DNA of 64,000 nucleotides, from NCBI GenBank assembly GCA_963775895.1, contig CAVZKL010000027.1, positions 1 to 64,000 on the forward strand, given 5' to 3'. Below the pieces are notes generated by a model, which ran no database searches, was not told where the DNA came from, and saw only the letters and a program-made list of their open reading frames with translations. A program made the position numbers and the translations under genes. The stretch comes from Candidatus Bathyarchaeota archaeon. GTDB lineage: Archaea; Thermoproteota; Bathyarchaeia; Bathyarchaeales; Bathycorpusculaceae. The stretch's first letter is position 1; the number at the start of each line of letters is the position of its first letter. Positions 923 to 62,965 of this stretch are shown here, one piece after another.

Positions 923-1069
923 GAATTCCGCCTTCCGATCCTAACTGCGGATAGCCTCGCGCGCGCTAAAAGGTAGGTTAGGCTACTCATAGAGAGGATT
1001 TTCTCTTGAAGGGTTTAAAAGGCTTTGCCTTGTTTCTAGCGCGTGCAGGAGGTTGGGTCGCCGCGAGCA

Positions 1070-1191
1070 CCGTCAGGTCGTCGGATCGTCGAATCCGTCA
1101 GATCCCGTCGAATACGCGTATAACACAGGCGTTTTACAGGGTAAAACACGGGAGACAATTGTAGATAATAGAATAACTGACGACCTGACGG
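1070..1191. repeat. 13-bp perfect inverted repeat with degenerate CGTC-core copies next to the left arm
   Basis: CCGTCAGGTCGTC at 1070-1082 and GACGACCTGACGG at 1179-1191. Confidence 0.8.
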
Positions 1192-1345
1192 AAAATTCGC
1201 GCTTTGTGTTTGCTCTTGAGAAATCCAAGTAATGATGAAGGAAGAATAAAAAAGAGCCTAAAGAGGTGTTTTATTGCACGTTCTCTCGCCAGCGCTAAAT
1301 TAACGTATCCATAAACCTTCACGCTGTTGTAGGAATAAGGTTTTA

Positions 1346-3917
1346 ATGTTTAGTCAGCAGTTCTTTTTGGCGAAGGGAGCGCTTGTGAGAGGCCGGCTTT
1401 TGTTGGTTTTGCTAGTTTTGCTGGTTTGTGGGCTGGTTTTGTTGGCTTCCTTTCGTTTGGGTTTTTTGTTTTCGGGTTCATCTATTGCTGTTTCTTCTGT
1501 TTCTGATTTTGCGCCGAGCATGAGGGTTGTGGGTGGCGCCGACAGGGATCATGATGGAGTTGAGGATGGCTTTCAGCAGGAGATTGCTGCTAGGCTGAGT
1601 AATGGTTCAGGTCAGGAGTTTGCGAATGTTACAGTTATGCTGAGAAGCATACCGACTGCTCCGGACGATGATGCTTTTGTTTCTTCCGGTGGTACTTTGA
1701 CAACCAGCAATTGGAAGTATGCCATTTATGGGTTTGGCGGGCGCATACCCTACAACAAGGTTGGAGTTTTTGTTAAGCAAAACCCTAACGTGTTGTTGGT
1801 TGAGAAGGAAGCTGTTTGTAACGCAAATCTAGCTTACGCGGCCACGCAGGTTGGGGCCAGACCCTACGTGTGGAGTACTCTCGGGCTTCAAGGGGACCAG
1901 AATTCATCGGTTGCAATCATAGACACGGGGATAGACGCCTCTCACCCGGATTTCTCGCCTGGATTCGGCGACCAGAACTTCTCAAAAAAGATCATCGGAT
2001 GGAATGACCAAGTGGGGATAACCACGTCTCCCTACGACGACAATGGACACGGCTCACACTGCTCCGGACTATCTTCCGGAAACGGATTCTTCAGTGTAGA
2101 TGCGTCAGGAAATGCCACTGCAACGTGGGGAGCCAACCTCGGGTCAGTATCCAGTACAGGTACTTACTTCGTAAGCGGAATGATGGTGAACAAAACAGGC
2201 ACCATAACCATCAAAGTGAAATGGGCAACCACTGGCACAGCCACGCTCTCAGCGCTCCCGCTGTACTACGGCGACAAGACCCTCAGTACCTCATCATGGA
2301 CTCCAGTAGCCTCGATAAGCACACCCGGCCAAAACACTTGGTACACGCTGACCTACAACGTAGCTGCAACGCCTTCAGGCGGATACGACATGTACCACGC
2401 GCGAATGACCCTAACGGCTGGAACGGGAAATCTCTACGTGGTATTTACGATGTCATGGCCCTATGCGCCGCCGTCAGATGGTTTTTCAGCATGGACAGGC
2501 ATAGCACCCCAATCGAAACTCGTAGGGGTCAAAGTACTTGACAACTCAGGTTCAGGAACATCAACAGGGCTGATCAGCGGCCTTAACTGGATAATTGCGA
2601 ACAGAATGGCCTATCACATAACCGTTGCCAGCATGAGCTTGGGCTTCAGTTCTGAGGTTAGCACGGTCGACGCGGCTGTGGCGAATTTGGTGAATAGTGG
2701 CGTGAGCACGATCGTTGCGGCTGGCAACAGCGGTTCAGGCGCCAACAACATTTACACTCCTGGCTCGGTGGATGAGGTTTTGACTGTTGCGGCCATGAAC
2801 CAGTTTGACGGTGTCACAAGTTACAGCAGTCAGGGTGGGACTTCGCGGTACACGGGGCAGACTGTGAAGCCGGATGCAACTGCGCCCGGCGGCAGTTTCT
2901 ACGCCGTGCCACTGTTCAGTGCGGACTCCAATTATAATGATGCGGAGGGCGAGTGGCCGGATGCGGTGGCTAATGATGCGGCGCCTATGCAGGGCACGTC
3001 GATGGCTACGCCTATCGTTGCTGGCGCTGCAGAGATTTTAGTGCAGGCGCTTAGGCGGCTACAAAGCGTGGAATTATACGAGAAGTCAGGCTCTGTTGCC
3101 GAAGATGTTGTTGTCGATGACGGCGACTGAGACCTACCCGAACGCTCGGGAGAGTGGCACTTCGCCCACGCTTGAGCGGGGTGGAAAGGATGCGCAGGAA
3201 GGATACGGGCGGGTTAACCTTGATGCTGCCGCGGATGCTGTGTTGAAGAATTATTACGCTGGAACCACGGTTGTGGATTCACTTGGGTCGCCGCCGACGC
3301 TTGGGAATATTACGGTTTTGGGGCAGAGGCTCTGTTGGGCAAGAAATGTTCAGCTGCTTTCGGGCATCGCCTATAATTTCACGCTCACCGTTCCAGCTGG
3401 CGCGGATTTTGACTTGTACCTTTACAATTCGACTGGCACAGCGTATGGAGAGCCTGTTGTTTTGACTAAGAGCACTTCGGCTGCGGCTGGTGCAAATGAG
3501 AGCATCGTGTACACGCCTGTTTTGTCTGGGGAAATATTTTGTTGTTGTGAAGCGTGCCCGAGAGGACACAGGTGGTGGCCAGTTTACATTGACGAGCACG
3601 CCTCGTCAGACTGCTCACCTTCTCCTTAGCGTAGAGCCGAGCCAGGCTGCTTACTCGAGGGGGCAATCAGTGACTTTTGCAGTGACCGTGTTTAACCAGT
3701 TGTTGCCCCTCTCGACGCCACTTTGACTCTGACCGTTACCGGCCCAAACAACTATTACTATTTTGACTTTCAATCTGTAAACGTGTCAGCTAACGCGGTT
3801 AGAGAGTACAGTTTTGATTGGGCTATTCCGAATGTTGCTGGAACATGTGTCGTGGAGGTCAACCTTGTTCCCTCAAAATTGACGGCATACGATGCCGTGT
3901 GGTTGGAGGTAATCTGA
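1346..3917 (+). CDS. Secreted subtilisin-family (S8) serine protease with propeptide, internal insertion domain, PPC-like domain and shared C-terminal beta domain; three frameshifts
   Basis: Hydrophobic N-terminus; catalytic motifs IIDTG, HGSHC, AAGNSG, GTSMATP. ORFs 1346-3130, 3096-3629, 3490-3726 and 3723-3917 join by single-base shifts. Confidence 0.9.
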
Positions 3918-3935
3918 GTTGAATAGGGGCGTGCT

Positions 3936-7868: not shown

Positions 7869-7943
7869 GTTACTAACACGTACAAACAACACCAACACTC
7901 TTTCACATATCTAGTTTACACGCTTTAGAAATATAGCGCGCGC

Positions 7944-8051: not shown

Positions 8052-8076
8052 GGTAGCGCGCGCTCTCACCCGTTTA

Positions 8077-8874
8077 TTAAACGCAAACCACTATGAAGTC
8101 TAAACAATCTTCTGATGGATTTTCACATACCTCATAAAATGTATCCTCATCCATTTTAAAGAGATAGCGCCCGAAAACCTTTCTTATTTTCAGGGGGCTT
8201 AAGTCTAACAATGATCGAAGGCGCAGATTCCCTATAAATGCTTCCAATTTTTCAGCTCGATTGCCGAGATCTTTAATCTGAGCAGTTGGATAAACGCCAA
8301 ACATTTTCACCTCTTGGAAAACTTTTTGAAGCAAGACTTGCAAATCTTTTAAGTAAAACTCTCTCGTATGAAATGGATTCCTACCAGCGGCATAATATGT
8401 TTTTTTGTTCGGTGTTGAGACGATGAACATCTTGGACATCCTGTGCACTTCAGATAAGTAATTGTCGAGATTTTCTATGTGTTCTATTACCTGAAATGAT
8501 ATGACACAATCGAAACCATTATCCTTGAAAGCTAATTGTGAACCATCCATTGTTCCGTATTGCAGGTTCTCATTGAAATATTGACCCTTACAATACTTTA
8601 TGGCTTCTTTCGATATGTCAACTCCAATAATGTACTTAGCGCCTTTTGTTGATAAATAGTATGTTCCGTAGCCAGAACCGCAGCCCAGATCAAGTACGAC
8701 TTTGTTATTTACGTATGGAACCGCAAATTTATACGCGCACATGTGCCCAACCCAAGGCGCATCAAAATATGACAACTTTTCTTTTCTTAATTCCTCTTTC
8801 GATACAAGACTTCTTTCACTGGCTCTTTCCTCTCTCCTTTTTGTCTTTATAGGAGATTTTGACTCAGATTTCAT
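8077..8874 (-). CDS. Class I SAM-dependent methyltransferase
   Basis: VLDLGCGSGYG, GVDIS, FDCVISFQVIEH, STPN. Confidence 0.9.
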   Translation of the reverse strand: MKSESKSPIKTKRREERASERSLVSKEELRKEKLSYFDAPWVGHMCAYKFAVPYVNNKVVLDLGCGSGYGTYYLSTKGAKYIIGVDISKEAIKYCKGQYFNENLQYGTMDGSQLAFKDNGFDCVISFQVIEHIENLDNYLSEVHRMSKMFIVSTPNKKTYYAAGRNPFHTREFYLKDLQVLLQKVFQEVKMFGVYPTAQIKDLGNRAEKLEAFIGNLRLRSLLDLSPLKIRKVFGRYLFKMDEDTFYEVCENPSEDCLDFIVVCV

Positions 8875-13618: not shown

Positions 13619-14813
13619 AGTACGTTTTCATTAAGAAAATGATTGTAATCAACCTTGTCTTTGTAGAATAGGTTCCAGATAATGCCTAAAAATGGAGAAT
13701 TACCTTTAATCATGAGTTTCTTAATTTGATCATCAGGCACCTTCCGGACCAAACGTTGCACCTTTAGCCTTTTTCTCCAAATATGTCGAAAATTCAGCAT
13801 GACCCACGATAACGCCCGTACACGCTGACAAATTATATGTTTTCTTTGAAGGAAAGGCAAGAGACATCAAGAACATGAGTTAATTCAACTGATACGTTAG
13901 ATAATTCCGCCCATAAATAAGTTCCGCATATCATAATTTTTAATGAGCATGATAAGGCTGTTCCTTGAATTGTAATAGTAACTTTCTTCTGAACCTTGAA
14001 CCTTTTTCTAGTGCCTGAACCAAAATGGTAAACAATCGACTTTAGGTACAAACATGACTTTATAGCCATTTAATCTAATTCTCCAACCTAGATCTATATC
14101 TTCACAAACCATAAAAAAAGTTGGATCGAAATAGCCTACTTGTCTTAAAATTTGTTTTTTAACAATCATAGCGGCTCCTCTTGCGAGAAAAAATCTCATC
14201 TACTTTATCATATTGACCCTTATCCTCTCTCTTCGCAACCTCTCATCCATCCTTTTCCGTAACAATTGACGAAGTCGCCTGCACTGTCAATTGTTTTAGC
14301 GCGCGCGCGCGCTAATAATAATAATTTGCTTTGTGCAGCGCCTACAGTCTTATCAGACTCCACAACAATGAGTAATTCTTGTAACCATTCTGGGTCAACT
14401 TCGGTATCATTGTTCAGGAAAACCACATATTTTCCCGTAGCTGCTCTCGCTCCAATATTGTTTCCTTCAGCAAACCCCAGGTTTGTGCCATTAGTTACTA
14501 TTCTTAAATTACTATGTTGGTGAAAGTTCTTTTGCACCAATTCGATGCTTCCATCAGTGGAAGCGTTATCAACAAGGATGACCTCAAAATTTCGGTAATC
14601 GCTCTGTAAAACCGAGTCTAAGCATTGATTCAAAAACTTTTTCCCGTTGAAATTTAAGATGACAATTGAAACCATAGGCTGAGTCGAAAGGTCTCCCTGG
14701 AAGCTAGGATTATGCGCACGCGCATGGGATCGTCCATAGGAATCAACAGACAGTTTAGCGTGTGCGCTAGGCCAGGCACGCGTAGTTACAATTCTGATAC
14801 TACTTTTTGACAA
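13594..14813 (-). CDS. GT2 family glycosyltransferase; several frameshifts; true start uncertain
   Basis: VSIVILNFNG, VILVDNASTDGS, NLGFAEGNN, FLNNDT, GAAMIV, EDIDLGWR. Confidence 0.85.
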
Positions 14814-16801: not shown

Positions 16802-18142
16802 TCAGTAATAACCCCATCCTATTCCATAATATCTAAACCCTTTTTCCAGAGCCTGATGTGGATCAACAACCCTACCACAATCCACGAGGACAGGTTTTTC
16901 CTTCATTAGATTTTTGAGTTCACTTAGATTTATTCTTCCAAAATCAGGATGATTCACCATAATAATCATGCAGTCAGCGTTTCTGATAGCTTCTTCAAGC
17001 TCTCTTGCCTTTTTGGCACCGAAACATTCCTCACAGTATGGATCGTAAGCAACCACCTCACCCCCCAAACTCAGAAGCTTTTTGATCACTTTTTGTGACG
17101 GGCTCAACGTCGGACTTCCTACACCTCCTTTGTAGGCAGTTCCTAGGACGGCGATCTTGGACTCTTTAATGTCCTTTCCGACAAATGATGTGCCTTTAAC
17201 AACAAGCTTCACCACATGTAAAGGCATATAGTCGTTTATATGGCGAGAAGCCAAGATGATTTTCGGATCAAGGTCTCCAAGTTCAGCAGGATGTATCAGA
17301 AGGTATGGATCTTTAGGTAGACATGGACCCCCAACGCCAGCACCAGGAAGGTGAATCTTTACTCTTGGATGAGTATTGGCTAGTTTTATAACATTTAACA
17401 CATCAACTTCTAGTTTTTCACATATTAAAGCCAACTCGTTGGCAAAAGCCACATTTACATCTCTAAAGGTGTTTTCAGCCAGCTTAGCGACTTCAGCGGT
17501 AGAAGCATCGGTTTCAATTACTCTCTTGCAAACTTTCGTAAAAAGCCTTTCAGCCGCTTTTGTACTGTTCTGGCCTATGCCTCCAATGACTCTTGGATTC
17601 TCAACAAACTCCCTCAATGCATTGCCGGGGGCGATTCTTTCGGGCACATAAGCCAGATAGAAGTCTAAGTCTGCTCTCAAGTTACTGGCGGACTCAAGTA
17701 ATGGCTTTACTACATTAATCATCGTTCCAGGAGGAACCGTACTAGAAACAACTACAAGCATCTCTTTCCTCAAAGCATCGGCTACTTTTTGAAGGGTTTT
17801 AATCAAAAATGATAGATTCGGCGACTTCTTTTCGTTTATAGGAGTCTGAACTGAAATTATGATGGCGTCTGCTTGGCTGAGAGCCTCGGCAGAGTTCAAA
17901 GTGGCTCTTAGCCTATTGACTTCAACGTTATGCTTTACCAGAGCGCGTAAACCAGGCTCGTCGTTAGGGCTGTTCCCTTTGTTTATTGCCTCAACGACTT
18001 GGGGCTTAACATCGAGAGCAACGACGCTAAAGCCTGCTTCAGCAAACAGAGCTGCAGTAGGTAAACCTACATTGCCTGAACCTATAACTGCAAGGGACAT
18101 CTTCCTCTTCTCTATTTTCCTTAAGATCTGATTTGTTTCCAT
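16802..18142 (-). CDS. wecC: Nucleotide-sugar dehydrogenase (UDP-ManNAc/GlcNAc 6-dehydrogenase, WecC-like)
   Basis: VIGSGNVGLP, PERIAPG, KLAENTFRDVNVAFANE, GVGGPCLPKDP, C-terminal LGTAYK domain. Confidence 0.85.
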   Translation of the reverse strand: METNQILRKIEKRKMSLAVIGSGNVGLPTAALFAEAGFSVVALDVKPQVVEAINKGNSPNDEPGLRALVKHNVEVNRLRATLNSAEALSQADAIIISVQTPINEKKSPNLSFLIKTLQKVADALRKEMLVVVSSTVPPGTMINVVKPLLESASNLRADLDFYLAYVPERIAPGNALREFVENPRVIGGIGQNSTKAAERLFTKVCKRVIETDASTAEVAKLAENTFRDVNVAFANELALICEKLEVDVLNVIKLANTHPRVKIHLPGAGVGGPCLPKDPYLLIHPAELGDLDPKIILASRHINDYMPLHVVKLVVKGTSFVGKDIKESKIAVLGTAYKGGVGSPTLSPSQKVIKKLLSLGGEVVAYDPYCEECFGAKKARELEEAIRNADCMIIMVNHPDFGRINLSELKNLMKEKPVLVDCGRVVDPHQALEKGFRYYGIGWGYY

Positions 18143-19495: not shown

Positions 19496-20699
19496 TTAAT
19501 CTTCGTCTAAAGAAAGAAAATCTAGAAACTTTTTCGAGATAATATCCCAGTCAAGTCTTTCTGTATATTTCTCAGCATTCTTTGACATGATTTTTCTTCG
19601 ATCTTCATCAACCAATTCTTCCATTTTCATTCGAAGGTCGTTCACATCCCCCTCACGATATACCATACCCGTCCCCTCGCTAACTCGTTCTACCGTTCCG
19701 CTCTTGTCTGATATGATAATCGGTAGACCGCAACACATCGCTTCAACCATGCTAATTGAACATTGAAGAGGCCAAACCCCCACATCTGCTGCATTGTAAT
19801 ACCGGTATAATTCTTCATTTGGTACTGCCTCAATGAACACGAATCTATTCGAGAAGCCTGATTTTCTTATTCTTTCTCTTAGCTGTTCAATGTAAGCTTG
19901 GTAGCTACCTCCAACAAACATCAGTTTGACATTCGGATGTCTACTGCACATCTCTATTCCCGCATCAACGAGTAAATGAACACCCTTTTCAGGTATAATT
20001 TTCCCAACATATAAGAAAACTACGTCATTATCTCTGAGCTTATACTTGTTTCTGAGGATCGGCCCTAGACTCTAAATCACAGTGGAAGATGCTTCTATCA
20101 GCACCCAAAGGAACTACTACAGTTCTCCCAGCGGGTATTGCGTACATTTCTTCCATAAAACGTCTCGTTTCATCCGAGACAGCAGCGACAAAAAGATCAA
20201 CTGCCTTCAACAACATAGGCGTAAAAACTCTTCTGAATATTGCATACGTCAAAAGTGTCCAACCCCTGCGCGTTGCATTATTCGTCATATGATCGTCAAA
20301 AATGAACTTTGCAGCGGGAAGTTTGGATTTCAATTTTGCGATCCGGATAGAGGTAATGCTAGCTACGCCGTGAACAATTATTACATCAGGTTTAAAGTCA
20401 ACAACTGCCCGTTCAAGGCCAATTAACCAAGGTTTATTAAAGGGTTCTACATCAAGTAATGTTGGAAGCCTTAGAGTTTTTATTCCTTCTTCTGTGAAGA
20501 GACCAGAACCGATCACTCTTTTTTTCAAGAGGTTCTTGTTGGGGAGATAAATTCCTTTCCCAAAGCGATCCGAGGTTACCACAAGGCTTTCATGGTGACG
20601 ACCATGTGCTTTTGCTAAAAAAGTCTCCTGATACCCTAGCACCGGATAGAAATGATCGATTATATGTAATACTTTAAGCCTTTTACTCACGCTTTTCAC
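19496..20699 (-). CDS. GT4 family glycosyltransferase; frameshift near 20060
   Basis: N-terminal HFYPVLGYQE; C-terminal YNAADVGVWP...EAMCCGLPII. Confidence 0.85.
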
Positions 20700-21529: not shown

Positions 21530-22707
21530 TTAATCAGTTCTTGTCACTTCGCCATAGATATGCTCTAACTTGTCAACGGTATTCTCCAAAGAAAAATCGT
21601 TCCTAACCATTAACCTACAGTTTCTGGAGAATTTTTCAGCCAATTCAGTATCGGAGAGCAGGGTACAAATTGCCTTGGCTAAGGCGTAATACGTTGGTGG
21701 AGTCACATAGCCCACATTACCGTTTATCCAATCCAATGTGTCTCTCAGAGTTGTCGTAATTATGGGAGTCCCAACAGCGCATGCTTCCAGAAACGTCACA
21801 GGAAAACCATAGAATGAAGGTGTAACGAACATGTCAGCATCCACAAAAGCAGCAAGTTTATCCTTGCTATTGATAAAACCGGTGAATAAGACGGAATCAG
21901 ATGTGCCTGCCGAATCTACTAAAGACTTGGCCTCGGCTAAATACCCATCGTCTGGTCCAGCTATTACTAGTAGTATATTGTCACATTTCATTTTCTCAAT
22001 CATGTACGCATGGGCTTTGATCAGAAGGTCTATTCCCTTAGTCTTGTGAATTCTGCCCAAGTAAAGTATTATCTTCTTGTCATCCTGAATGTTGAACCTC
22101 TTCTTTGAAAGAACCCTTGGGCGGCAGATCAGCATACTTTGACAAATCTATTCCATTAGGTACAACTACAATTTTGTCATCTGGCACACCAGAACGCCTA
22201 TACTGTTCAGCTTCAATTCGGCTGAGAGCGATAACTTTCGCAGCATCCCTCAATAATCTGTGACCAAAGAAAACATAATAGAGCCACTTTCTGCCCTTCC
22301 TGCCTATCTTGGGCAGAGAACCATGAGCTTGAAGAACATAGGGAACGCCGTATTTCTTTGCAAACCTATGAACAATTATGTTCTGATAAGTTGTATACTC
22401 GTGAGTGTGAACAACATCAAACGATTTCAAGTCAGACTTAATTTTCTTAGGTAATTCGGGCGTTATGAAAAGCTTCGACTGCTTAACAAAAAACATCGAC
22501 AAGTTACTGAAATAGTGAACCCTCATTCCTTCAACTTCATCACTTTCAACATCAAGCTTGTCCCCCAAATTCCTAGCATCAGAAGTAAAAACAACAACTT
22601 CATGGCCTTCGCTTCACCAATTCCTTCCCAACATCAAACGCAACCTTAACAGGACCCCCAAAAGCCTCGGCCGGATCAAGATACGGAGTTACGAATAAGA
22701 CTTTCAA
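21530..22707 (-). CDS. GT4 family glycosyltransferase; two frameshifts
   Basis: TTG at 22707 gives MKVLFVTPYLDPAEAFGGP; then AHGS, VVPNGID, LYLGRIHKTKG, FLEACAVGTP. Confidence 0.85.
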
Positions 22708-22747
22708 GGTTCAGAAACTCGTCTCTCTGTCAGCGCGCGCATTTATG

Positions 22748-23978
22748 TCAAGACGCGTATTTTGAAGAAGCGACTGAAGCCAAAACTGTGTACATTCGTT
22801 CGCCAATCTTTTCTGACGTCAAATGCTCCGAAACGTAATGTCTGCCGTTTATTCCAAGTTCGGCACCCAATCGTCTATCCGTGCGAAGTCTAGTCACAGC
22901 TTCTGCAAAACCACCTGCATCTCTAGGTTTAACAATAAGGCCTGATCTACTTGTCTCAACGTACCTAGCAGGTTCTCCATCAGAAACACAAACAATAGGC
23001 TTACCATAAGCTTGATACTCAAAAACCTTAGTCGGAAGCCCCAAATCCACAAAACTCATAGTAGCCATGGGAAGCACAAAAACATCCGCAGAGCCCAGTA
23101 AGGAAGCCAGCTCATCCTTAGGCAAAAAACCACGTATTCAAAACAACATTCTTAAGACCAAGCTCACTAATTGTCTTTTTTAGCATCGGAGCCAACTCGC
23201 CAACACCCCTGATAACGAAGACAACATCTTCATTTTTAGAAAGAAGCCTCGCAGCCTTCAAAACGACATCAAAATCATAACCTAAACCCAAAACCCCAGA
23301 ATACATAACAACAAAACGACCCTTCGAATTCTTTTCAGTGCTCAAGGGTTTAACACTCTCAACACCGACCTCAATGACGTGCACTTTATCTGGAGAAACA
23401 CCGTAGTCACCAACTATTTTACGCTTATATCCCGCGCTTATGGGCGTAATGGCTGCAGGAACGACATAAGAGAGCCAAGCCAGGAAATTCAATACTTTCC
23501 GCGCAAACTTGGGCTTTATATATCCCAGCTCGTAAAAAACCTCAGGCCACAAATCATCCACATTTCGCACAATAGGCACATGCTTGACAACGCCATAAAC
23601 AAAACTAGGAAAGAAAGAAAACAAGTTAGGGTTAGCGCCCCAAACCACATCAACCTTTCCTACGAAAGGTAAAGCAAACAGAGAAGAAACAACAAAACAA
23701 AAATGCAAAACAATCCTCTTTAACGGATTGCTATGTGGCAAAGCAGGAATCCACACACGATAAACCATTGCAGCACCAAACCTTTCAGAAACAATAGCCT
23801 TACGATTATACTGGCTTGGAACTTCACCATGCGGATAATGCGGAAAAGCAGCCACAACAGTGACGTCGCAACCGCTACTGAGCAGCCCATTTACAACATT
23901 AGTTGCCCTCGTGCTACCGCCGCCCATGTCAGGAGAAAAATATTGGGCTAGAACCAAAACCTTCAAGCGATTAACCAT
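22748..23978 (-). CDS. GT4 family glycosyltransferase (WbuB-like); frameshift near 23125
   Basis: QYFSPDMGG, FPHYPHG, DLWPE, YSGVLG, PTKVFEYQAYGKP. Confidence 0.85.
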
Positions 23979-24040
23979 AGCGACGACAGTTTTGGATGCA
24001 GCTCTGTTATCGCACGCTTGCATTCCAACGGACATGTAAC

Positions 24041-25007
<967 letters not shown>

Positions 25008-26044: not shown

Positions 26045-26108
26045 CAAAATCTTCCTATGATATTTTTCCGCGCGCGCGTTGCGTCCACCGGTAACCAGGA
26101 CCTTTAAC

Positions 26109-27532: not shown

Positions 27533-27547
27533 GCCGATGCGCCACTC

Positions 27548-28510
27548 TCATTTTTTCCCATTCGTCCTCTGTGCAAGCCTCGCAATCGCGTACAATGTTA
27601 TGGAAGTTGACAGCAGGAAGAACCCTATCAGCACGAATGCAAGTGAGGCCAACGCAATGTTCGTTACTATGTGACGTTCTGCACCGTAGATCTGAAGCAT
27701 CCAAACCCCAAAAAAAACTCCTATCATCAGGGATAGAACACCAGGTATTCCCATAAACACCAAAGGACTGTCTTCAACTACGAGCTTGACGATGGACATC
27801 AATACGCCAACGCCGTGCCTCACCGGGTTGTGCACATGTTTCTTTAAGTCTGCTCCGTAATAGCATGTTGCTGGGACCTCTTGAATTCTTAAACCGTTTT
27901 TTCTGGCGCTCATCAGGATTTCTACGCTTGCGCCCATGCCATTTTCTGCCACGACCAGCTTGTCTAGGCATTTGCCGCTGTAGGCTCTCAACCCGCATTG
28001 AGCATCCCCCACACCCTGCTTAGTGTTGTTAGCGCGCGCTACAAGTCGTGAAATGAATTTTATGCCGGCTCTCCTGTACCAGGGCATAACACTTGGCAAG
28101 TGTTCATCGATGAACCTTGAACCGAACGTGATGTCGGCCGCACCGTTCTTTATGGGCTCGACAACGTTTGGAATATCGCGCGGATCATGCTGGCCGTCAC
28201 CATCCAACGTGACTAGGATGTCAGCATCCAACTCTCTGGCCCGTCTGAACAATGTCTGAATCGCCGCGCCGTAACCAAGGTTCTTCTCATGTCTCACCAC
28301 GTCAGCTCCTAACCCCTTCGCAATCTCCCCCGTCAAGTCCGTTCCGCCGTCGTCACAGACCACAACCTTGTCCGCATACTTCTGAGACTGCAAAACTACC
28401 TTCGCAATAGTCTTCTCTTCATTAAAAGCTGGAATCCCAACCACAACGAAGGGTTTCAAAGCAGCTACAGCTTCAATCTCAATATTATGGCTTTTTGAAA
28501 TCTCTACCAT
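27548..28510 (-). CDS. GT2 polyprenol-phosphate glycosyltransferase-like, with two C-terminal TM helices
   Basis: IPAFNEE, DDGGTD, NLGYG, LDGDGQH, GSRF, DAQCGLRAY. Confidence 0.9.
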   Translation of the reverse strand: MVEISKSHNIEIEAVAALKPFVVVGIPAFNEEKTIAKVVLQSQKYADKVVVCDDGGTDLTGEIAKGLGADVVRHEKNLGYGAAIQTLFRRARELDADILVTLDGDGQHDPRDIPNVVEPIKNGAADITFGSRFIDEHLPSVMPWYRRAGIKFISRLVARANNTKQGVGDAQCGLRAYSGKCLDKLVVAENGMGASVEILMSARKNGLRIQEVPATCYYGADLKKHVHNPVRHGVGVLMSIVKLVVEDSPLVFMGIPGVLSLMIGVFFGVWMLQIYGAERHIVTNIALASLAFVLIGFFLLSTSITLYAIARLAQRTNGKK

Positions 28511-30101: not shown

Positions 30102-31369
30102 TCGTCTCCAACCAAGGTTCGCGCGCGCGATGTGGGACGTGTGATCGTGCCCTTCTTGTCCGTCTTCAACCACTTGTGTGGTCTTCGTAGCACAATGAGC
30201 AGCATCGCATAGAACGCGATGAAAGCTTGGGCACTCCAATAGGCGTAGATGAACGGGACCCAGAGCAGGTCCAATGCTTTTCTCGGTTTCGAAGAGTAGA
30301 GCAAGGCTAAACCGCAAGCAAACATAGTGGCTGTCGCAAGGATAACCGTGAATTCCGTGATAAGATACAGAAAAGTGCCAAGTGGAAACGGCATCAACGC
30401 CACAAAGGAACCCGCAAAGTAAGCCAGCAAGGATGCTATCAACACAAACGGTCCGAACAGGGTCATTTCGGCATCAAAGCTCTTTTTGCTCGGCTTGGCC
30501 ATCAATCGACCATACTTCATTGCGACTTCCATGGTTCCTCTGTACCAACGAGCACGCTGCCTGAACAACTGCTTCAGGTCACACGGGCTCTCCTGCCAAG
30601 ATCGAACGTCCGGGGCATACTTAATCTTGTAACCTTTTTCGGTTGTTTTCGCTGAAAGTTCCATATCCTCAGACAGGGCGTTTTCGTCGAAGCCTTCCAC
30701 TTGTTCCAAAACATCTCGCCTGATGAACTGGCAGCTTCCTTTCAAATGGACAAACAAGTTCAGAGCGTCTTTGCCGCGCAAATACGTCTCATACCAAATG
30801 TCCTCCTCTCGTGAAATCATTCTTGTCAACATGTTTTCTTCGGAGTTGATCGACAACGTTCGACCCTGAACTGCCGCCACCTGCGGATCCTCAAAATACC
30901 TAGAGACATTCAGCAAAGCATCGCTAGCAGGAACACTGTCCGCGTCAAAAACCCCGACTATCTCGCCCTTTGCACACGTGATACCAGCATTCAGAGCCGA
31001 AGGCTTTCCATCCGAAAATGGTCTTTGAACAATTCTTATGTTCAACCTCTGCTCTCTGGCAAAAGCTTCACACACACCGACACTTCTGTCGGTTGAACCA
31101 TCCACAACGACTATTATCTCCTCCTTATCAGAAGGATAGCTCATCTCAGTCAAAGCGTTCAGCAATCTGCCCACCACTTTTTCCTCATTTTTCACGGGCA
31201 CAATAATCGAAAAGACTGGCAACGCTTCTCTTTTAGCAGACTTCCTACGCGACTTTCTTTTGCTTTCGCGAAGGTTCTTTACGCCTGCCACCAAAATCGG
31301 AAGATTGTAGAACGACCAAGCGTAGACGATGAGGAGTGTGCAGACTAATCCGATATACGGCCAGATCAA
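30098..31369 (-). CDS. Processive GT2 synthase (cellulose synthase/PgaC-like)
   Basis: D,D,D,QxxRW set: VDGS, FDADS, SED, QRARW; flanking TM helices. Confidence 0.9.
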   Translation of the reverse strand: MIWPYIGLVCTLLIVYAWSFYNLPILVAGVKNLRESKRKSRRKSAKREALPVFSIIVPVKNEEKVVGRLLNALTEMSYPSDKEEIIVVVDGSTDRSVGVCEAFAREQRLNIRIVQRPFSDGKPSALNAGITCAKGEIVGVFDADSVPASDALLNVSRYFEDPQVAAVQGRTLSINSEENMLTRMISREEDIWYETYLRGKDALNLFVHLKGSCQFIRRDVLEQVEGFDENALSEDMELSAKTTEKGYKIKYAPDVRSWQESPCDLKQLFRQRARWYRGTMEVAMKYGRLMAKPSKKSFDAEMTLFGPFVLIASLLAYFAGSFVALMPFPLGTFLYLITEFTVILATATMFACGLALLYSSKPRKALDLLWVPFIYAYWSAQAFIAFYAMLLIVLRRPHKWLKTDKKGTITRPTSRARTLVGDD

Positions 31370-31802: not shown

Positions 31803-32001
31803 GCTATCCCTTCATGCATTCAAGATTATGCGCGCGCCACCTAACCTCCAATTTCTGTGAAGCAATCAGATAAAAGACTTGCGTACACAAACGTTTCCCA
31901 GTGTACGCCGCAAATCTTGGCAGATAGTGAAATCTTGTCCCAGCTCATAGAATGCATAAATCCAAGGTTTTATCTCCTCAAACGATGTCCTACTGGCTAA
32001 G

Positions 32002-32605: not shown

Positions 32606-33037
32606 TCAGAAGATATTGCGTTTCCTTTTCTTTGACCCTTCTTGGGGCACTTCAGCTTCGCTTTGCTCAGGCTGCGGCAACACGCCTGCGCTAACGCCCT
32701 CGCCAGCTTCTTCAGAAATCTCTTGTACAGGCTCAGGAGGCGTCTCGCTTGGAGTGCTCTCTATTGCAGACGAAGTCTTCAGTTGCTGTTCCAAGATCGC
32801 TATCTTGTCCTCCAGTTCTTTCACTGCAGCATCGTGCGTACGCTTCTCTTCTTCAAGAATTTGGACAAGTAGATTCCTATCGATAGCGAGTTTTTCCGCG
32901 CGCGCTTTTTCCTCCAGAATCTTAGTCTTCTCTTCCAGCGATCTTCGTCCCTTTTCAAGGCGTTTGGATTCTTCTTCTGGTCTTGTCTTTGTCTGTTGAA
33001 GTCCCTGAAGGTTGTCTGTGTTGCTCAATTGGTTCAC
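32606..33037 (-). CDS. Coiled-coil protein with acidic/Pro tail and basic C-terminus
   Basis: Heptad E/K-rich segment; ends KKRKRNIF. Confidence 0.65.
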   Translation of the reverse strand: MNQLSNTDNLQGLQQTKTRPEEESKRLEKGRRSLEEKTKILEEKARAEKLAIDRNLLVQILEEEKRTHDAAVKELEDKIAILEQQLKTSSAIESTPSETPPEPVQEISEEAGEGVSAGVLPQPEQSEAEVPQEGSKKRKRNIF

Positions 33038-33192
33038 CTTGAAGGGTAGTTTCTGTTGAAGATATAATTGATTTATGAATTGGAACTATGTATCGCAGAT
33101 ATACTCAAGGGACGCGCACTTCAGCGCGCGCGTTGCTAGAGAATGAAATTTGATTGATTTCTCATAGAAAAAAGAGAGAAGAAAGAGCTGTC

Positions 33193-34523: not shown

Positions 34524-34622
34524 ATTCTTCTCGATGTTTTTGTTATACACTTCTAAGGATAAGGGTTTGGGGTAAAGTTTTATCCAACCACACCAAATCA
34601 AAAAGACTGTGCGCGCGTCACT

Positions 34623-36571: not shown

Positions 36572-36951
36572 CCAATAACACCTACAGGCAAAGGCAAAGA
36601 AAATCCAATTGAAGACAAAAGCGTAGTTACGAGAATTGTAGAAACAGAGCTAGCAAACAAAAAAGTTAACAAAAAAAGAGCTAAGTCACTTAGATTTTCA
36701 ATGCCCAATTCTGATCGTAATGGTCTAGCATGTATCTTACTACGAGACAAAGTAACAAAAATCAAAAGAGTAACTATTATTCCTATAGGAGATGCTAGTG
36801 TCCTTGTAAAAACTACACCAACCATACTAGAAGCAATAATTATTAATATCCACACATAAAATTTCACTCTATAAGCGCGCGCTTTGGTTATTCCAGAAAC
36901 TGCTATAGAATATTTATTCTTCTTCTTGCGTAGAAACATTAAATGCACCAT
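36568..36951 (-). CDS. Small membrane protein (about 3 TM)
   Basis: Hydrophobic 127-aa ORF overlapping both neighbours. Confidence 0.65.
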   Translation of the reverse strand: MVHLMFLRKKKNKYSIAVSGITKARAYRVKFYVWILIIIASSMVGVVFTRTLASPIGIIVTLLIFVTLSRSKIHARPLRSELGIENLSDLALFLLTFLFASSVSTILVTTLLSSIGFSLPLPVGVIG

Positions 36952-37738
36952 TTTCTAGCGCGCGCGCCAAAAATTTCTTATATTCTTCATCTATGTTTAT
37001 CGCACCTTGAAGAATAGGTGAACTCATCATATGAAGAAGATAGCGAACATCTTTTGGAAGACATTCACCACCTATGCCTTTTCGTGCTTCAAGTATTTGC
37101 AAACTATAATCTTCCCTTTTTAGAGTATTACAAGCACGCCTAAGTTCTGCAAAAGAAACCTTACTTTTCTTACAAGCCATCAACAACGATTCTGCAAATG
37201 CAATTTGAACGAAACGATATGCATTCTCTGTCACTTTTGTCATTTCTGCAATTTCCAATGATGACAAAACTGTTATAGGAATGCCGAGACTTTCGTAAAA
37301 TCCTTTTCCTAATACTAAACTTTCATCATTTAGTGCTCCAAAAACTCTTTTTTGTACTACACCGTAGTTCTTTTGGTCGTATTGCCACCATCTATGTGGA
37401 CAAACAACTACATGATTAAACCCGTATTTGTTTGCCATTGCTCTTGCTGTACCAACTGATAAAGTAGATTCAAAACAAATAAGCGATTCTTTGTCTGCTA
37501 TTTTACTGCAAACTGAATCTACAGCAGACATATCGGGCTCATTATTCTTGAACCAAGTGTTTACTGCAATAATATAAACATCTGGGTCTTCTAATTTCAT
37601 TGAAGCTTTCAATCCCGCTTTGATGGCCGTCTCTATAGCGACACTAGATATATCACACCCATACGTTTCATAAAATTTAGAAACATGCAAAGCTACTGGC
37701 AACCCTATGTTTCCTAGTCCTATTACACAAACTTTCAT
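36914..37738 (-). CDS. Short nucleotide-sugar dehydrogenase lacking the C-terminal UDP-binding domain
   Basis: MKVCVIGLGNIGLP, ESTL, KVTENAYRFVQIAFAE, GIGGECLPKD. Confidence 0.85.
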   Translation of the reverse strand: MKVCVIGLGNIGLPVALHVSKFYETYGCDISSVAIETAIKAGLKASMKLEDPDVYIIAVNTWFKNNEPDMSAVDSVCSKIADKESLICFESTLSVGTARAMANKYGFNHVVVCPHRWWQYDQKNYGVVQKRVFGALNDESLVLGKGFYESLGIPITVLSSLEIAEMTKVTENAYRFVQIAFAESLLMACKKSKVSFAELRRACNTLKREDYSLQILEARKGIGGECLPKDVRYLLHMMSSPILQGAINIDEEYKKFLARALENGAFNVSTQEEE

Positions 37739-38146
37739 ATCGCGCGCGCAGGGTGTCATATACTCTGCGTCATGGGAACCTATTTGGCCTGATCCAATTA
37801 TGAGCATGTCAGATTTGCTAACGCTCAAGCCTTACGACCTCAGAATCCGTATACGGAATCTTGAGTCGTAATAAACGTTGTGCCAGCCCTGTCTTACACA
37901 ACTACACACACCGCGAAACGACCTTTTCATAGCGCGCTATTGGTCTTAGGTTTATTATGAGGGGTAAATTTTCGTTCTTTTTTGACCCTCGTAGCATCAA
38001 CTGACTATCCTGTCCTTTTCTGTTACACTGATATTCCGTGTGGTCGTCGTGGTCCGTGATCGTTCGTCGTTGGTTGGGGGTAAAGTTTTATCGCACGCGC
38101 GGTACATTTTTAACTGTCTTTCGTCCAATAGAGTGAAGGTGCGTTC

Positions 38147-39468: not shown

Positions 39469-39482
39469 CACGCACACACCGG

Positions 39483-39533
39483 GCATATTTGGATCCTAAT
39501 ATTCATGATACATTGAAACCGAGGAGGGGGAGG
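39483..39533 (+). repeat. ~50-bp dispersed repeat, copy 1
   Basis: GCATATTTGGATCCTAATATTCATGATACATTGAAACCGAGGAGGGGGAGG; reverse complement at 60800-60849. Confidence 0.9.
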
Positions 39534-60567: not shown

Positions 60568-60640
60568 GCCGGGGTGGCCGAACGGTTCAGGCGGTTGCCT
60601 GCAGAGCAGCTATATATGGGTTCAACTCCCATCCCCGGCT
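60568..60640 (+). tRNA. trnC: tRNA-Cys(GCA), intronless, CCA not encoded
   Basis: Acceptor GCCGGGG/CCCCGGC, anticodon arm GTTGC-CTGCAGA-GCAGC, T arm ATGGG-TTCAACT-CCCAT, U discriminator, TATTTAT upstream. Confidence 0.93.
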
Positions 60641-60799
60641 TTTCAGCATAAACCCATAGATTCAATCATGTTTAATGGATGGCTTGACGTGCGCGCGCCT
60701 CATTCCTCATCCTACCGTTGCTCTTCATAATGATACTGTAGGCAGTCGTTGTCCGCGAGCATAGTGCCCGCTATTGGGAGATTTCGGTGCATTATGGGC

Positions 60800-60849
60800 C
60801 CTCCCCTCCTCGGTTTCAATGTATCGTGAATATTAGGATCCAAATATGC
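60800..60849 (-). repeat. ~50-bp dispersed repeat, copy 2 (inverted relative to 39483-39533)
   Basis: One substitution and one G-run indel versus copy 1. Confidence 0.9.
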
Positions 60850-60901
60850 ACGCATGCGATTGGAGGAATTCACTCAAGCCATTGGGTTTTCAGCCTTTCT
60901 C

Positions 60902-60922: not shown

Positions 60923-60977
60923 CTAGCGCGCGTTACCGTGCTGTTCTTTCATACAGTGGGCTTTTCCAAATGCGCGC

Positions 60978-61535: not shown

Positions 61536-61903
61536 CCAACCCTAAACAAACTGTTCTTCCCCTTTAATCAAGTCATCCTTGGCCACGGTTGTTTTTGATG
61601 GAAGGAAGTAATCAGGAGCCAATCTTGGCTTCTTTCACCACTGGACGAGCTATTGCGCGCGCGTGGATGACTTCCGATCACTGCATACTGGGGCATGATC
61701 ATTTCACCTAATACATGATGTCGTCAGAGCACCTTTTGAGTATGAGTGACTGCCACCCGACAGCAACAGCGAAGAAGACGTACCGTTGACCATGTTAACA
61801 CTTGCCGTTCTGGCGAACAGATTTGCGCAGTTGCAAATCACGATATCTCTCTTAACTCGAGACCACAGATTAATGACCAGTCGAAAAGTGAGAAAAAGGC
61901 CGA

Positions 61904-62422
61904 TTAGACTCCACGTCTTCTCCTGAAGGCTAACGCGACGGTCATCGTACACGCGGCCAGAATTGAAAGCATGATCAGTGGCTGGAATTCTGGGACTGCA
62001 GGGGTCACGATAAAAGTGCCGTACATCGGACTTGGATGGAACACGCAATAATAAGTAAAAGTGCCTGAAACATTCGCTGTAAAAGTTAGAACGACGGTTT
62101 GTCCGGGACCGATATCGGAAGAGACGACATCACCCGAATGTTGAGTCGAACTGTTTTCATAGCTAAGCAGGAATCGATGGGAAGCAGCGTAGTATCCCGT
62201 GTCCACGTTTATGAGCGTCAAATTCACAACATCGTTCAAGTCAACGACAATGACAGGTCCTGGACTGGTAATGTTGCTAGCCGAAAAGCCCCATCCAGAA
62301 ACATAGGAACCGTACAAAGTGAAGTTGCGGACAGTTGCTGCTTGTGCCTTCAAAACTTGCCCAGCCCCACACATAACGGCGCAGAGAATCAGTATCCTTG
62401 CGATAATCCGTTTCACATTCAT
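61904..62422 (-). CDS. Secreted cupredoxin-fold protein with PEF-CTERM sorting signal
   Basis: Signal peptide, PGPVIVV, HRF, YYCVFHPSPMYG, then VPEF, a TM helix and RRRR. Confidence 0.8.
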   Translation of the reverse strand: MNVKRIIARILILCAVMCGAGQVLKAQAATVRNFTLYGSYVSGWGFSASNITSPGPVIVVDLNDVVNLTLINVDTGYYAASHRFLLSYENSSTQHSGDVVSSDIGPGQTVVLTFTANVSGTFTYYCVFHPSPMYGTFIVTPAVPEFQPLIMLSILAACTMTVALAFRRRRGV

Positions 62423-62614
62423 TTCTTGATCCCTTCTTTTTCCATACCTGCTTGGATTATTGTGCGAGTGGATTGTTTTCCCAAACTTCTCCAAAAAAGT
62501 AAAGCCGAGAGCCTGTTTATAGCTTTTGCTCATACGTTTTTTCGCGGTGCAGACCTCAGCTGAAAGAGATTTAATCCACAAATTACCTCCTACAGGTGAA
62601 GAAGCTCCTCACCG

Positions 62615-62851
62615 GTGAAGAGTGTGAAGATAAGTAAGAAGTACTCAACCCTGCTACTCGCCACGTTCATGACGCTTGCCATGGATTTCGCGATGACGCT
62701 AACCATGACCATTGCAATGACAGGAATCGATCCTGGTTTTCTCATTAGATTCTTTGGCGGTTACATGATCGGGCTCATAGTAGGCATCCCAACAAGTGTA
62801 CTGGTGATTCCTTACGCTCGAAAACTCGTGGAAGTACTCACCGTAGACTAG
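62615..62851 (+). CDS. Small two-TM protein (DUF2798-like)
   Basis: Met-rich first TM, GFLIRFF, second TM followed by PYARKLV. Confidence 0.65.
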   Translation: MKSVKISKKYSTLLLATFMTLAMDFAMTLTMTIAMTGIDPGFLIRFFGGYMIGLIVGIPTSVLVIPYARKLVEVLTVD

Positions 62852-62965
62852 TTCCTGAATGTGCACGCGCGCCAGGTTTAAGCCGAAATTCAGTTTTCCT
62901 GTCATCTGCGGTGTCCCTGACTAAATCTTTAAGTCACTTCGAACAAATATTAAAATGAGCGCAAA

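What the first reader, a model, noticed from the sequence alone, without database searches (positions are those of the whole stretch)
958..62872. Highly iterated (CG)n palindromes punctuate the accessory genes: candidate cassette-swapping system
Seen: pure alternating CG tracts of 8 nt or more at 958, 7936, 8056, 14299 (14 nt), 22733, 26069, 28032, 30120, 31830, 32897, 33124, 36875, 36958, 37741, 60691 and 61655 (16 by hand count). There are also 7-mers at 8879, 34611, 49865, 60926 and 62866, and CA/TG-containing variants. A rough hand estimate at about 44% GC gives one or fewer by chance in 64 kb. None of 8 nt or more lies in the core block from about 37.8 to 60.6 kb, yet three occur in or at the edge of the most AT-rich DNA. 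Many sit within tens of nt of a gene end, and several mark breakpoints of gene remnants (next findings). Known: cyanobacterial HIP1 (GCGATCGC) is a comparable iterated palindrome, and (CG)n is the classic Z-DNA former. Inference: the tracts act as recombination joints for acquiring and shuffling surface and glycan genes, integron-like in logic but without attC structure. No recombinase is visible in this window.
Basis: partly seen in the sequence, partly recalled or inferred. Interest (0 to 1): 0.88.

Follow-up and report, generated by a model that had tools for sequence, protein, structure and literature searches.

The report
GC-repeat scars mark DNA rearrangement joints
Short GCGCGCGC tracts, hugely over-represented in the non-coding DNA of this soil archaeon and some of its relatives, sit where DNA was deleted, inserted or inverted, so they look like scars of an unusual way of joining broken DNA.

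Summary
All 16 tracts lie at the stated coordinates; shuffles expect fewer than one.

It is a genome-wide feature of a Bathyarchaeia genome (1.77 Mb, 47.7% GC), not a window feature:
- GCGCGCGC occurs 254 times against about 20 expected and is the top octamer.
- 207 of 263 tracts lie in the 17% of the genome I called intergenic, 60-100 times expectation.
- Consensus is TA-(GC)4-5-TA; wider flanks are unrelated.

Two congeners about 90% identical show the tracts at rearrangement joints:
- Where both flanks map and lengths differ by 250 nt or more, the tract is on the short allele in 13 of 14 cases.
- At least 4 joints have no tract at either edge of the long allele, so the tract arose de novo.
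- Tracts also flank a replaced 60-nt piece and a small inversion.

In this genome they lie at 18% of duplicated-segment borders against 0.6% at random.

Best reading: filler made when DNA ends are joined, later re-used as breakpoints. The enzyme is unknown:
- A Ku-LigD operon exists, but Ku does not track tract richness across 401 genomes.
- No cognate cytosine methyltransferase was found.

The parts
958..966 (.). (CG)n tract, 9 nt, in a divergent intergenic region
7936..7943 (.). GCGCGCGC tract in a convergent intergenic region
8056..8063 (.). GCGCGCGC tract about 14 nt beyond the stop of the methyltransferase gene at 8077-8874 (-)
14299..14312 (.). 14-nt (GC)7 tract, about 27 nt past the point where likeness to the GT2 domain ends
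   Evidence: the GT2 domain is matched only at positions 1-110 of 168.
14220..14813 (-). Truncated family-2 glycosyltransferase (gene remnant) ending at the 14-nt tract
22733..22740 (.). GCGCGCGC tract between a GT4 gene end and a 5'-truncated GT4 gene
   Evidence: A gap-free public contig covers it.
26069..26078 (.). (CG)5 tract between the epimerase and GDP-mannose dehydratase genes. Contigs of related strains lose likeness on both sides of it.
   Evidence: a contig stops matching at 26066 although it runs on; another starts matching at 26081 after 212 unlike letters; one contig covers the tract with no difference.
28032..28039 (.). GCGCGCGC tract inside an apparently intact GT2 gene, one of the minority of coding tracts
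30120..30129 (.). (CG)5 tract at the junction of the GT2 gene (30098-31369) and the 600-aa ORF
31830..31837 (.). GCGCGCGC tract in a divergent intergenic region, 65 nt from a 663-nt presence/absence variant seen in a related strain
   Evidence: joint 31902->32566.
32897..32905 (.). (CG)n tract, 9 nt, in an ORF with no family match
33124..33132 (.). (GC)n tract, 9 nt, intergenic; 2 nt shorter in one public run
   Evidence: table 4.
34611..34617 (.). 7-nt tract at the right edge of a 1,038-nt presence/absence variant (weak: 30 letters on the shorter side)
   Evidence: joint 33572->34611.
36875..36882 (.). GCGCGCGC tract just beyond the truncated 3' end of the dehydrogenase remnant
   Evidence: Gap-free contigs cover it.
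36958..36967 (.). (GC)5 tract about 64 nt past the end of likeness of the dehydrogenase remnant
36914..37828 (-). UDP-glucose/GDP-mannose dehydrogenase remnant. Only residues 13-284 of the 446-aa paralogue are matched. It is bounded by tracts.
37741..37749 (.). (CG)n tract exactly where likeness to the dehydrogenase starts (37744)
60691..60698 (.). GCGCGCGC tract 50 nt beyond tRNA-Cys. Two congeners carry a tract at a different spot of the same spacer.
61655..61663 (.). (GC)n tract, 9 nt, intergenic

Best explanation
The tracts are copies of a short palindrome, consensus TA-(GC)4-5-TA. It is made de novo as filler when broken or non-homologous DNA ends are joined.

Each illegitimate joint (deletion, capture of a DNA piece, inversion, segmental duplication) tends to receive one tract. 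Joints survive only where sequence is dispensable, so tracts pile up in intergenic DNA, gene remnants and variable islands such as the glycosylation island of this window. Afterwards they decay, mostly by C-to-T type transitions, change length by 2 nt, and are re-used as breakpoints.

Shown: the enrichment, the intergenic location, the coincidence with joints, de novo appearance at deletions, and fast turnover.

Inferred: that the tract is synthesised or ligated in during end joining. One possibility is reiterative extension of self-complementary GC ends; another is a palindromic linker. Which enzyme does it is unknown. The genome's Ku-LigD operon is a candidate here, but it cannot be the general cause.
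For: (1) Enrichment.
- GCGCGCGC occurs 254 times per strand against about 20 expected and is the top octamer under order-1 and order-3 models.
- In DNA I called intergenic it occurs 199 times against 2-3 expected, and it is the commonest intergenic 8-mer.
- 207 of 263 tracts are intergenic.
- The intergenic length distribution peaks at exactly GCGCGCGC: 96 against 21 for CGCGCGCG.

(2) Joints between G001 and G008 (720 kb each, about 455 kb aligned at about 90%).
- Both 250-nt flanks mapped for 43 of 185 tracts.
- 14 of these differ in length by 250 nt or more. The tract is on the short allele in 13.
- All 13 extra segments carry long open frames and 9 of 13 have a protein-level match in outgroup G000.
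- Synteny with G000 was checked for two and holds.
- Of the 9 junctions printed, 4 have no tract at either edge of the long allele, one is ambiguous, 3 have the tract in both alleles at one border, and 1 has tracts at both borders.

(3) Other joint types.
- About 85 nt is replaced by an unrelated 60 nt flanked by tracts on both sides.
- A roughly 20-nt inversion is flanked by tracts on both sides.

(4) Large indels. 12 of 36 carry a tract of 6 nt or more at a junction, against a background of 1.4% per 40-nt window.

(5) Within G000. 23 of 127 borders of duplicated segments have a tract of 6 nt or more within 10 nt, against 0.6% of random positions. For tracts of 8 nt or more it is 14 of 127 against 0.16%.

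(6) Turnover.
- About 15 of the 43 mapped tracts are kept in the other genome (my reading of the rows).
- One orthologous site differs by four transitions.
- Transition variants are about 7-fold enriched in intergenic DNA, against 1.6-4-fold for transversions at the same positions.

(7) Replication. In distant genome G080 (420 kb read, 39% GC) 72 of 86 tracts are intergenic. That is 102 occurrences against 0.09 expected, with the same TA flanks.

(8) In the window. A dehydrogenase remnant is bounded by tracts, and contigs of related strains lose likeness at the tract at 26069.
Against: - 24 of 36 large indels have no tract, so many rearrangements (IS insertions, microhomology deletions) do not use this route.
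- The 13:1 asymmetry is conditional on both flanks mapping. In 43 further tracts only one flank maps, and a tract at the edge of lineage-specific DNA could mark an insertion.
- 4 of 36 indels have the tract only at an edge of the long allele.
- Three events have the tract in both alleles at a fixed border, which fits a pre-existing hotspot as well as a scar.
- Related strains carry an 11-nt pure insertion or deletion of a tract at window 27220, with no loss of flanking DNA.
- No enzyme is identified. Ku occurs in 126 of 401 Bathyarchaeia genomes, mostly tract-poor ones (genus g23: 45 of 56 Ku-positive, 0-54 tracts). It was not found in most tract-rich ones: G219, G320, G376, G080, G089, G100, G105, G244.
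- PolX and reverse transcriptase were not found in 3 rich and 2 poor genomes.
- Gene calls are my own crude ORF calls, so coding and intergenic counts are approximate.
- Outgroup synteny was verified for only 2 of the 13 deletions.
Confidence: 0.6

Rival explanations
1. Pre-existing recombination sites: the palindrome is a target at which a dedicated recombinase or nuclease cuts and exchanges segments, an integron-like cassette system.
For: - Three events have the tract in both genomes at a fixed border with different DNA on one side.
- One 1,765-nt segment is flanked by tracts in the long allele, with a single tract in the short allele.
- An inversion border region carries tracts at both ends.
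- Tracts are dense inside variable islands: 7 and 11 tracts in 24-kb and 34-kb G001-specific blocks.
Against: - At least 4 clean deletions have no tract at either edge of the long allele; for two of them outgroup synteny shows that allele is ancestral.
- Only 1 of 36 indels is flanked on both sides.
- Nothing beyond T-A is conserved in the flanks.
- Most resolvable events are losses of coding DNA.
- No recombinase was linked to the tracts, and none was searched for systematically.
Confidence: 0.13
2. Excision footprints of a TA-targeting cut-and-paste transposon (IS630/Tc1-mariner type). The TA duplication plus the last bases of both inverted ends would give TA-GCGC-GCGC-TA.
For: - The extended consensus is T-A-(GC)n-T-A in G000 and more strongly in G080.
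- Related strains carry an 11-nt pure presence/absence of a tract at 27220.
Against: - None of the 43 tracts with both flanks mapped is a simple 8-12-nt insertion relative to the other genome. Gains come with loss or replacement of DNA.
- Among the 40 longest repeated segments of G000 listed I recognised no element bounded by TA with GCGC-type ends at both termini.
- Tract length varies from 6 to 14 nt.
- The IS630 transposase family was not searched for.
Confidence: 0.1
3. A selected functional element of intergenic DNA: a binding site of a dimeric protein, a terminator or insulator, or a DNA-uptake-type self-recognition signal.
For: - The sequence is a palindrome and strongly intergenic.
- It is 2-3 times denser in convergent (3'-3') spacers (1.31 per kb) than in tandem (about 0.58) or divergent (0.45) spacers.
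- It is skewed toward the upstream stop in tandem spacers.
- Its distribution is lineage-specific, as for uptake sequences.
Against: - Only about 10-25% of spacers have one.
- Sites turn over fast: about 15 of 43 are kept at about 90% identity.
- Decayed copies are common.
- Position relative to starts and stops is broad.
- This reading does not explain the coincidence with indel, inversion and duplication borders.
Confidence: 0.08
4. A HIP1-like iterated palindrome produced or kept by a cognate cytosine methyltransferase and biased mismatch repair.
For: - It is an octamer palindrome and the top over-represented word.
- Decay is dominated by CpG-to-TpG/CpA transitions.
Against: - No PF00145 C5 methyltransferase in G000 or in complete G001. 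It is present in only 2 of 10 congeners.
- It is absent from rich G320 and G080 but present in poor G066 and G324.
- The only PF01555 hit in G000 is a THUMP-type RNA methyltransferase by its sequence, and G080 has none.
- 79% of tracts are intergenic, unlike HIP1 as I recall it.
- Gains are linked to structural change, not to point mutation.
Confidence: 0.05
5. Assembly or sequencing artefact.
For: All genomes are metagenome-assembled.
Against: - The same trait appears in 10 of 10 congeners and in many other genomes with different record titles.
- Independent public contigs from three studies cover window tracts without gaps.
- 8-14 nt is far below assembler word sizes.
Confidence: 0.01

Closest known systems
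Filler DNA and N/P nucleotides at end-joining junctions (eukaryotic NHEJ and polymerase-theta joining; mutagenic Ku-LigD joining in mycobacteria). Recalled knowledge; only the search listing was seen.
   Same: Extra nucleotides appear exactly at deletion, insertion and inversion joints, together with loss of flanking DNA and capture of foreign pieces.
   Different: Known fillers are variable, or are copied from nearby DNA. Here the filler is one constant self-complementary sequence, TA-(GC)n-TA. It is frequent enough to become the commonest intergenic 8-mer. Ku does not track it across the class.
HIP1 (GCGATCGC) of cyanobacteria. Recalled; abstracts were seen only in the listing.
   Same: An octamer palindrome that is the most over-represented word of the genome and is lineage-specific.
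   Different: HIP1 is linked to cognate methyltransferases and, as I recall, is common inside genes. Here no cognate methyltransferase was found, 79% of tracts are intergenic, and the tracts coincide with rearrangement borders.
REP/BIME-type intergenic palindromic repeats of bacteria (recalled)
   Same: Hundreds of intergenic copies with a preference for gene 3' ends and convergent spacers.
   Different: REPs are 20-40-nt imperfect palindromes that can form hairpins and are mobilised by RAYT transposases. Here the unit is 8-12 nt with unrelated flanks. RAYT was not searched for.
Z-DNA-forming (CG)n tracts as fragile sites that provoke deletions (recalled from work in mammalian and bacterial cells)
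   Same: Alternating CG next to large deletions, and possible re-use as breakpoints.
   Different: In that work the tract exists first and causes the break. Here at least 4 deletions have the tract only in the deleted allele.
Archaeal primase-mediated microhomology end joining (PMC12019639; abstract read)
   Same: It offers a Ku-independent archaeal route with terminal transfer and annealing of microhomologies. That could in principle build and pair self-complementary tails.
   Different: The abstract mentions no sequence-constant filler. No link to the primase was tested here.

Membership tests
HIP1-type highly iterated palindrome | An octamer palindrome far above expectation, genome-wide | tested here: met
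   254 against about 20 expected; top octamer
HIP1-type highly iterated palindrome | A cognate DNA methyltransferase present wherever the palindrome is frequent | tested here: not met
   PF00145 is absent from G000, G001, G320 and G080. PF01555 is absent from G080, and the only hit in G000 is an RNA-type enzyme. G000 is 88.8% complete and G080 86%.
HIP1-type highly iterated palindrome | Spread over coding and non-coding DNA alike (recalled property) | tested here: not met
   207 of 263 tracts lie in the 17% of the genome called intergenic
Integron-like cassette array | Each cassette bounded by a structured attC-type imperfect inverted repeat | tested here: not met
   Flanks are unrelated beyond T-A. 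1 of 36 indels is flanked by tracts on both sides.
Integron-like cassette array | An integrase next to the array | not tested
   No recombinase family was searched. Of the window, only the 29 ORFs of the 8-38 kb island were scanned, and none of them is a recombinase.
Ku-LigD non-homologous end joining as the source | Ku, LigD polymerase, phosphoesterase and ligase genes present | tested here: met
   G000 contig C22 carries LigD Prim-Pol (29589-30452), Ku (28789-29592), and ligase C-terminal region plus phosphoesterase (27397-28245). The adenylation domain was not seen in the ORFs scanned.
Ku-LigD non-homologous end joining as the source | Tract richness follows presence of Ku across genomes | tested here: not met
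   It holds in the 31-genome sample: 8 of 11 genus genomes are Ku-positive and 1 of 20 outside. It fails in 401 genomes: tract-poor g23 is Ku-positive in 45 of 56, and many tract-rich genomes show no Ku.
IS630/Tc1-type excision footprint | TA on both sides of a short palindrome | tested here: met
   In G000: -1 A 47%, -2 T 38%, +1 T 46%, +2 A 36%. Stronger in G080.
IS630/Tc1-type excision footprint | The footprint is a simple short insertion relative to the empty site | tested here: not met
   0 of 43 tracts with both flanks mapped. One 11-nt presence/absence appears in public contigs.
REP-type repeats | A 20-40-nt imperfect palindrome conserved among copies | tested here: not met
   Only the 8-12-nt core is shared
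DNA uptake sequence | Preferential uptake of DNA carrying the motif, plus a motif-binding pilin | not testable with these tools
   None

The most novel reading that the evidence does not exclude
Some Bathyarchaeia possess a Ku-independent end-healing and joining activity that puts one fixed self-complementary linker, TA-(GC)n-TA, onto broken DNA ends. The linker could be protein-templated, oligonucleotide-templated or made by reiterative synthesis. Every illegitimate joint would then be barcoded. The tracts would be a countable fossil record of deletions, captures and inversions, and the activity would be a new kind of DNA repair enzyme.
Probability: 0.35. Interest if true: 0.92.

Novelty: new variant of a known kind. 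Interest (0 to 1): 0.8.

Why it matters
If the tracts are joint scars, they give a sequence-readable record of illegitimate recombination in an uncultured, globally abundant archaeal class. Gene loss, DNA capture and inversions could be counted and dated from genome sequence alone.

A constant alternating-GC filler also points to an unknown enzymatic activity at DNA ends. That would interest people working on archaeal double-strand-break repair, which is poorly understood, and possibly tool builders.

It further warns annotators that the non-coding DNA next to these tracts is often degraded genes.

I found no description of this in the held library.

Tried and rejected
- Longer repeat element. 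Flank alignment and logo show only T-A beyond the core. Rejected.
- Methylation-driven palindrome. Cytosine methyltransferase families do not follow the trait. Rejected as the main cause.
- Ku-LigD as the general cause. It looked good in 31 genomes but failed in 401. Kept only as a local candidate.
- PolX palm domain and reverse transcriptase. No credible hits in 3 rich and 2 poor genomes.
- GC richness as an explanation for high counts in other lineages. Rejected for G320 (51% GC), G105 (47%), G024 (43%) and G080 (35-39%). It is probably true for some f24 genomes where pattern and reversed pattern are equal. G135 of that family has 50.5% GC, yet 6 of its 7 tracts lie outside ORFs.
- The 36-copy, roughly 85-nt repeat found beside the tract at 60691. 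It is not tied to the tracts: most copies lie kilobases from one, and 3 of 36 lie within 20 nt. No Rfam match.
- Expression. No RNA holder was listed for this DNA, so nothing can be said about it.
- Coverage gaps in the laid contigs are not used as evidence.
- Supplementary files of papers were not consulted.
- Structure prediction, complex prediction, the protein homology searches and the protein atlas were not used, because the question is about DNA.

Full report
**Observation**

There are sixteen alternating C/G runs of 8-14 nt and five 7-mers. Dinucleotide-preserving shuffles of the window expect 0.4-0.7 octamer matches against 13 and 20 observed. None of 100 shuffles reached the observed number.

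**Organism and scale**

The window is contig C27 of a 1.77-Mb, 28-contig genome with 47.7% GC, 88.8% complete. Close relatives of its ribosomal protein carry record titles naming Bathyarchaeia or Bathyarchaeota metagenome-assembled genomes; one title names a bacterium.

The tracts are not a window feature.
- The genome holds 263 runs of 8 nt or more.
- GCGCGCGC occurs 254 times per strand against about 20 expected under order-0 to order-3 Markov models. It is the most over-represented octamer, followed by CGCGCGCG and words that extend the core with A...T.

**Where the tracts lie**

I used my own crude ORF-based gene calls: 1,964 genes covering 83% of the genome.
- 207 of 263 tracts are intergenic, 47 coding and 9 straddle a border.
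- In intergenic DNA GCGCGCGC is seen 199 times against 2-3 expected (order 0/1), and it is the commonest 8-mer of all.
- In coding calls it is seen 46 times against 13.6 +/- 2.6 in synonymous-codon shuffles. Some of these ORFs are remnants.
- The intergenic length distribution peaks at exactly GCGCGCGC (96, against 21 for CGCGCGCG).
- Flanks are unrelated apart from T-A on each side.
- Density is 1.31 per kb in convergent spacers, about 0.58 in tandem and 0.45 in divergent spacers. In tandem spacers tracts lie toward the upstream stop.
- Single-transition variants are about 7-fold enriched in intergenic DNA, transversions less.

**Distribution among genomes**
- In a 31-genome sample all 10 congeners have 29-464 copies. 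Other genera of the family have 0-14, and one genome of another family has 53.
- A 401-genome sample of the class shows the trait is patchy. Several other genera of the same family and members of other families have hundreds.
- Fetched pieces show this is not GC richness. Examples are G320 (51% GC, 27 tracts per 100 kb), G105 (47%), G024 (43%) and G080.
- In 420 kb of the complete genome G080 (39% GC) 72 of 86 tracts are intergenic. That is 102 occurrences against 0.09 expected, again the commonest intergenic 8-mer, with the same TA flanks.

**What the tracts mark**

Congeners G001 and G008 are about 90% identical and largely syntenic. I compared 720 kb of each, of which about 455 kb aligned.

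In the first 320 kb of each genome:
- 54 of 79 tracts lie in unaligned DNA (35% of bases).
- 13 of 79 lie within 20 nt of an alignment edge (0.9% of all bases, 4.8% of non-ORF bases).
- Only 12 lie inside aligned blocks.

Mapping 250-nt flanks of all 185 tracts gave these classes:

| Class | Tracts |
|---|---|
| Both flanks map | 43 |
| One flank maps | 43 |
| Neither flank maps | 90 |
| Discordant | 9 |

Of the 43 with both flanks mapped, by my reading of the rows:
- About 15 are kept in the other genome.
- 14 differ in length by 250 nt or more, and in 13 of these the tract is on the short allele.
- The rest differ by point changes or small replacements.

The 13 extra segments all carry long open frames, and 9 have protein-level matches in the outgroup G000. 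For two of them I checked synteny with G000 and it holds, so these are deletions in the tract-bearing lineage.

Junction anatomy of the 9 events printed:
- 4 long alleles have no tract at either edge, so the tract is new.
- One is ambiguous.
- 3 have the tract in both genomes at one fixed border, with different DNA beside it.
- One 1,765-nt segment is flanked by tracts, with a single tract in the short allele.
- In 3 of the new joints a GC dinucleotide sits at one ancestral break edge. This is a small-number hint of GC-primed extension.

Other joint types also carry tracts:
- About 85 nt is replaced by an unrelated 60 nt with a tract on each side.
- A roughly 20-nt inversion has a tract on each side.

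Counting from the indel side, 12 of 36 large indels carry a tract of 6 nt or more at a junction, against 1.4% background per 40-nt window. Five have it on the short allele only, three on both alleles, four at a long-allele edge only, and 24 have none. Many of those 24 show target duplications or microhomology, as expected of IS insertions and slippage.

Inside G000 itself, 23 of 127 borders of duplicated segments have a tract of 6 nt or more within 10 nt, against 0.6% of random positions. For tracts of 8 nt or more it is 14 of 127 against 0.16%.

**The window in this light**

The 8-38 kb block is a glycosylation island with GT2 and GT4 transferases, epimerases and dehydrogenases, and it holds several broken genes.
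- It has 12 tracts against 4.2 expected from its intergenic DNA.
- The dehydrogenase remnant at 36914-37828 matches only residues 13-284 of the intact 446-aa paralogue at 16802-18142. Likeness starts at 37744, within the tract at 37741-37749, and ends about 64 nt before the tract at 36958.
- The GT2 remnant at 14220-14813 loses likeness about 27 nt before the 14-nt tract.
- The tract-free block at 37.8-60.6 kb is tightly packed ribosomal-protein and core genes with 2.9 kb of spacer. About 2 tracts would be expected there, so its emptiness is unremarkable.

Public contigs from three studies bear on the window:
- They cover five tracts without gaps.
- They show a 2-nt length difference at 33124.
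- They lose likeness on both sides of the tract at 26069.
- They show an 11-nt tract present in relatives at 27220 where the window has none.
- They show presence/absence variants ending next to tracts at 34611 (weak) and near 31830.

**Mechanism**

What is shown:
- The palindrome appears de novo at joints that also lose, replace or invert DNA.
- It is short-lived.
- It recurs as a border.

What is inferred is that it is added during end joining. A self-complementary GC tail on both ends would let any two ends pair, and reiterative extension or a palindromic linker would give a constant filler.

G000 has a complete-looking bacterial-type end-joining operon on contig C22: LigD polymerase, Ku, and ligase C-terminal region plus phosphoesterase. 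In the small sample Ku and the polymerase follow the genus. The large sample removes this link. Ku is common in tract-poor genera and was not found in most tract-rich genomes, including the complete G080.

Other candidate families also fail:
- Cytosine methyltransferases do not follow the trait.
- PolX and reverse transcriptase were not found.

So the enzyme is unknown. A Ku-independent archaeal route through the replicative primase exists in print (PMC12019639, abstract read) but was not tested here.

**Comparison with known systems**

The tracts share statistics with HIP1, location with REP elements, and logic with junction filler DNA. They fail the defining tests of the first two (see the membership table). 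They differ from known filler by being one constant sequence. The integron analogy fails on site structure and on the direction of events. A TA-targeting transposon footprint fits the flanks but not the lack of simple insertions.

**Limits**
- Gene calls are crude.
- Only one close genome pair was analysed.
- Polarity was checked by synteny for two events only.
- The short-allele asymmetry is conditional on both flanks mapping.
- Related genomes are not independent samples.
- GC content of most surveyed genomes is unknown.
- No literature match was found in the held library; papers outside it could exist.

Noticed in passing
window 60791-60865 (+) and 39480-39529 (-); 36 copies in G000: A conserved repeat of roughly 85 nt, 90-100% identical among copies. 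It is intergenic, contains a GGATCC site and a C-rich run, and is also present in congeners, for example just after tRNA-Cys in G001, G008 and G009. There is no Rfam match. It is not tied to the GC tracts.
   Followed up: partly
window 19496-20699, 21530-22568, 22748-24083 (all on the - strand): Three family-4 glycosyltransferase genes are each split into two ORFs, with the N-domain and C-domain in different frames. These are frameshifts or pseudogenes, with no tract at the split.
   Followed up: no
G000 contig C22:27397-30452 (L053 7397-10452): A bacterial-type end-joining operon in an archaeon: LigD primase-polymerase, Ku, and ligase C-terminal region fused to the 3'-phosphoesterase. The ligase adenylation domain was not seen in the ORFs scanned; a 540-nt gap lies between the ORFs.
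   Followed up: partly
G000 contig C22:23190-26106 (L053 3190-6106): A class-I tRNA synthetase, leucyl type by its editing domain, is encoded as two overlapping ORFs of 408 and 565 aa. It is either a split gene or a frameshift.
   Followed up: no
G080:C1:1-420000: Besides GCGCGCGC, the palindromic words AGCTAGCT and TAGCTAGC are among the commonest intergenic 8-mers (68 and 57). This may be a second iterated palindrome.
   Followed up: no
G001:C1 local 111983-113520 of L031-L036: An insertion of about 1.5 kb with roughly 26-nt terminal inverted repeats and an 8-9-nt target duplication, absent from G008. It is an ordinary IS element, and its junctions carry no GC tract.
   Followed up: no
G001:C1:957247-957985 and G005:C10:254436-255177: The LigD polymerase gene is matched in two pieces in these two congeners. 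This is either a frameshift or a sequencing error.
   Followed up: no
window 60568-60640 (+): tRNA-Cys (GCA), the only RNA gene found in the window.
   Followed up: yes
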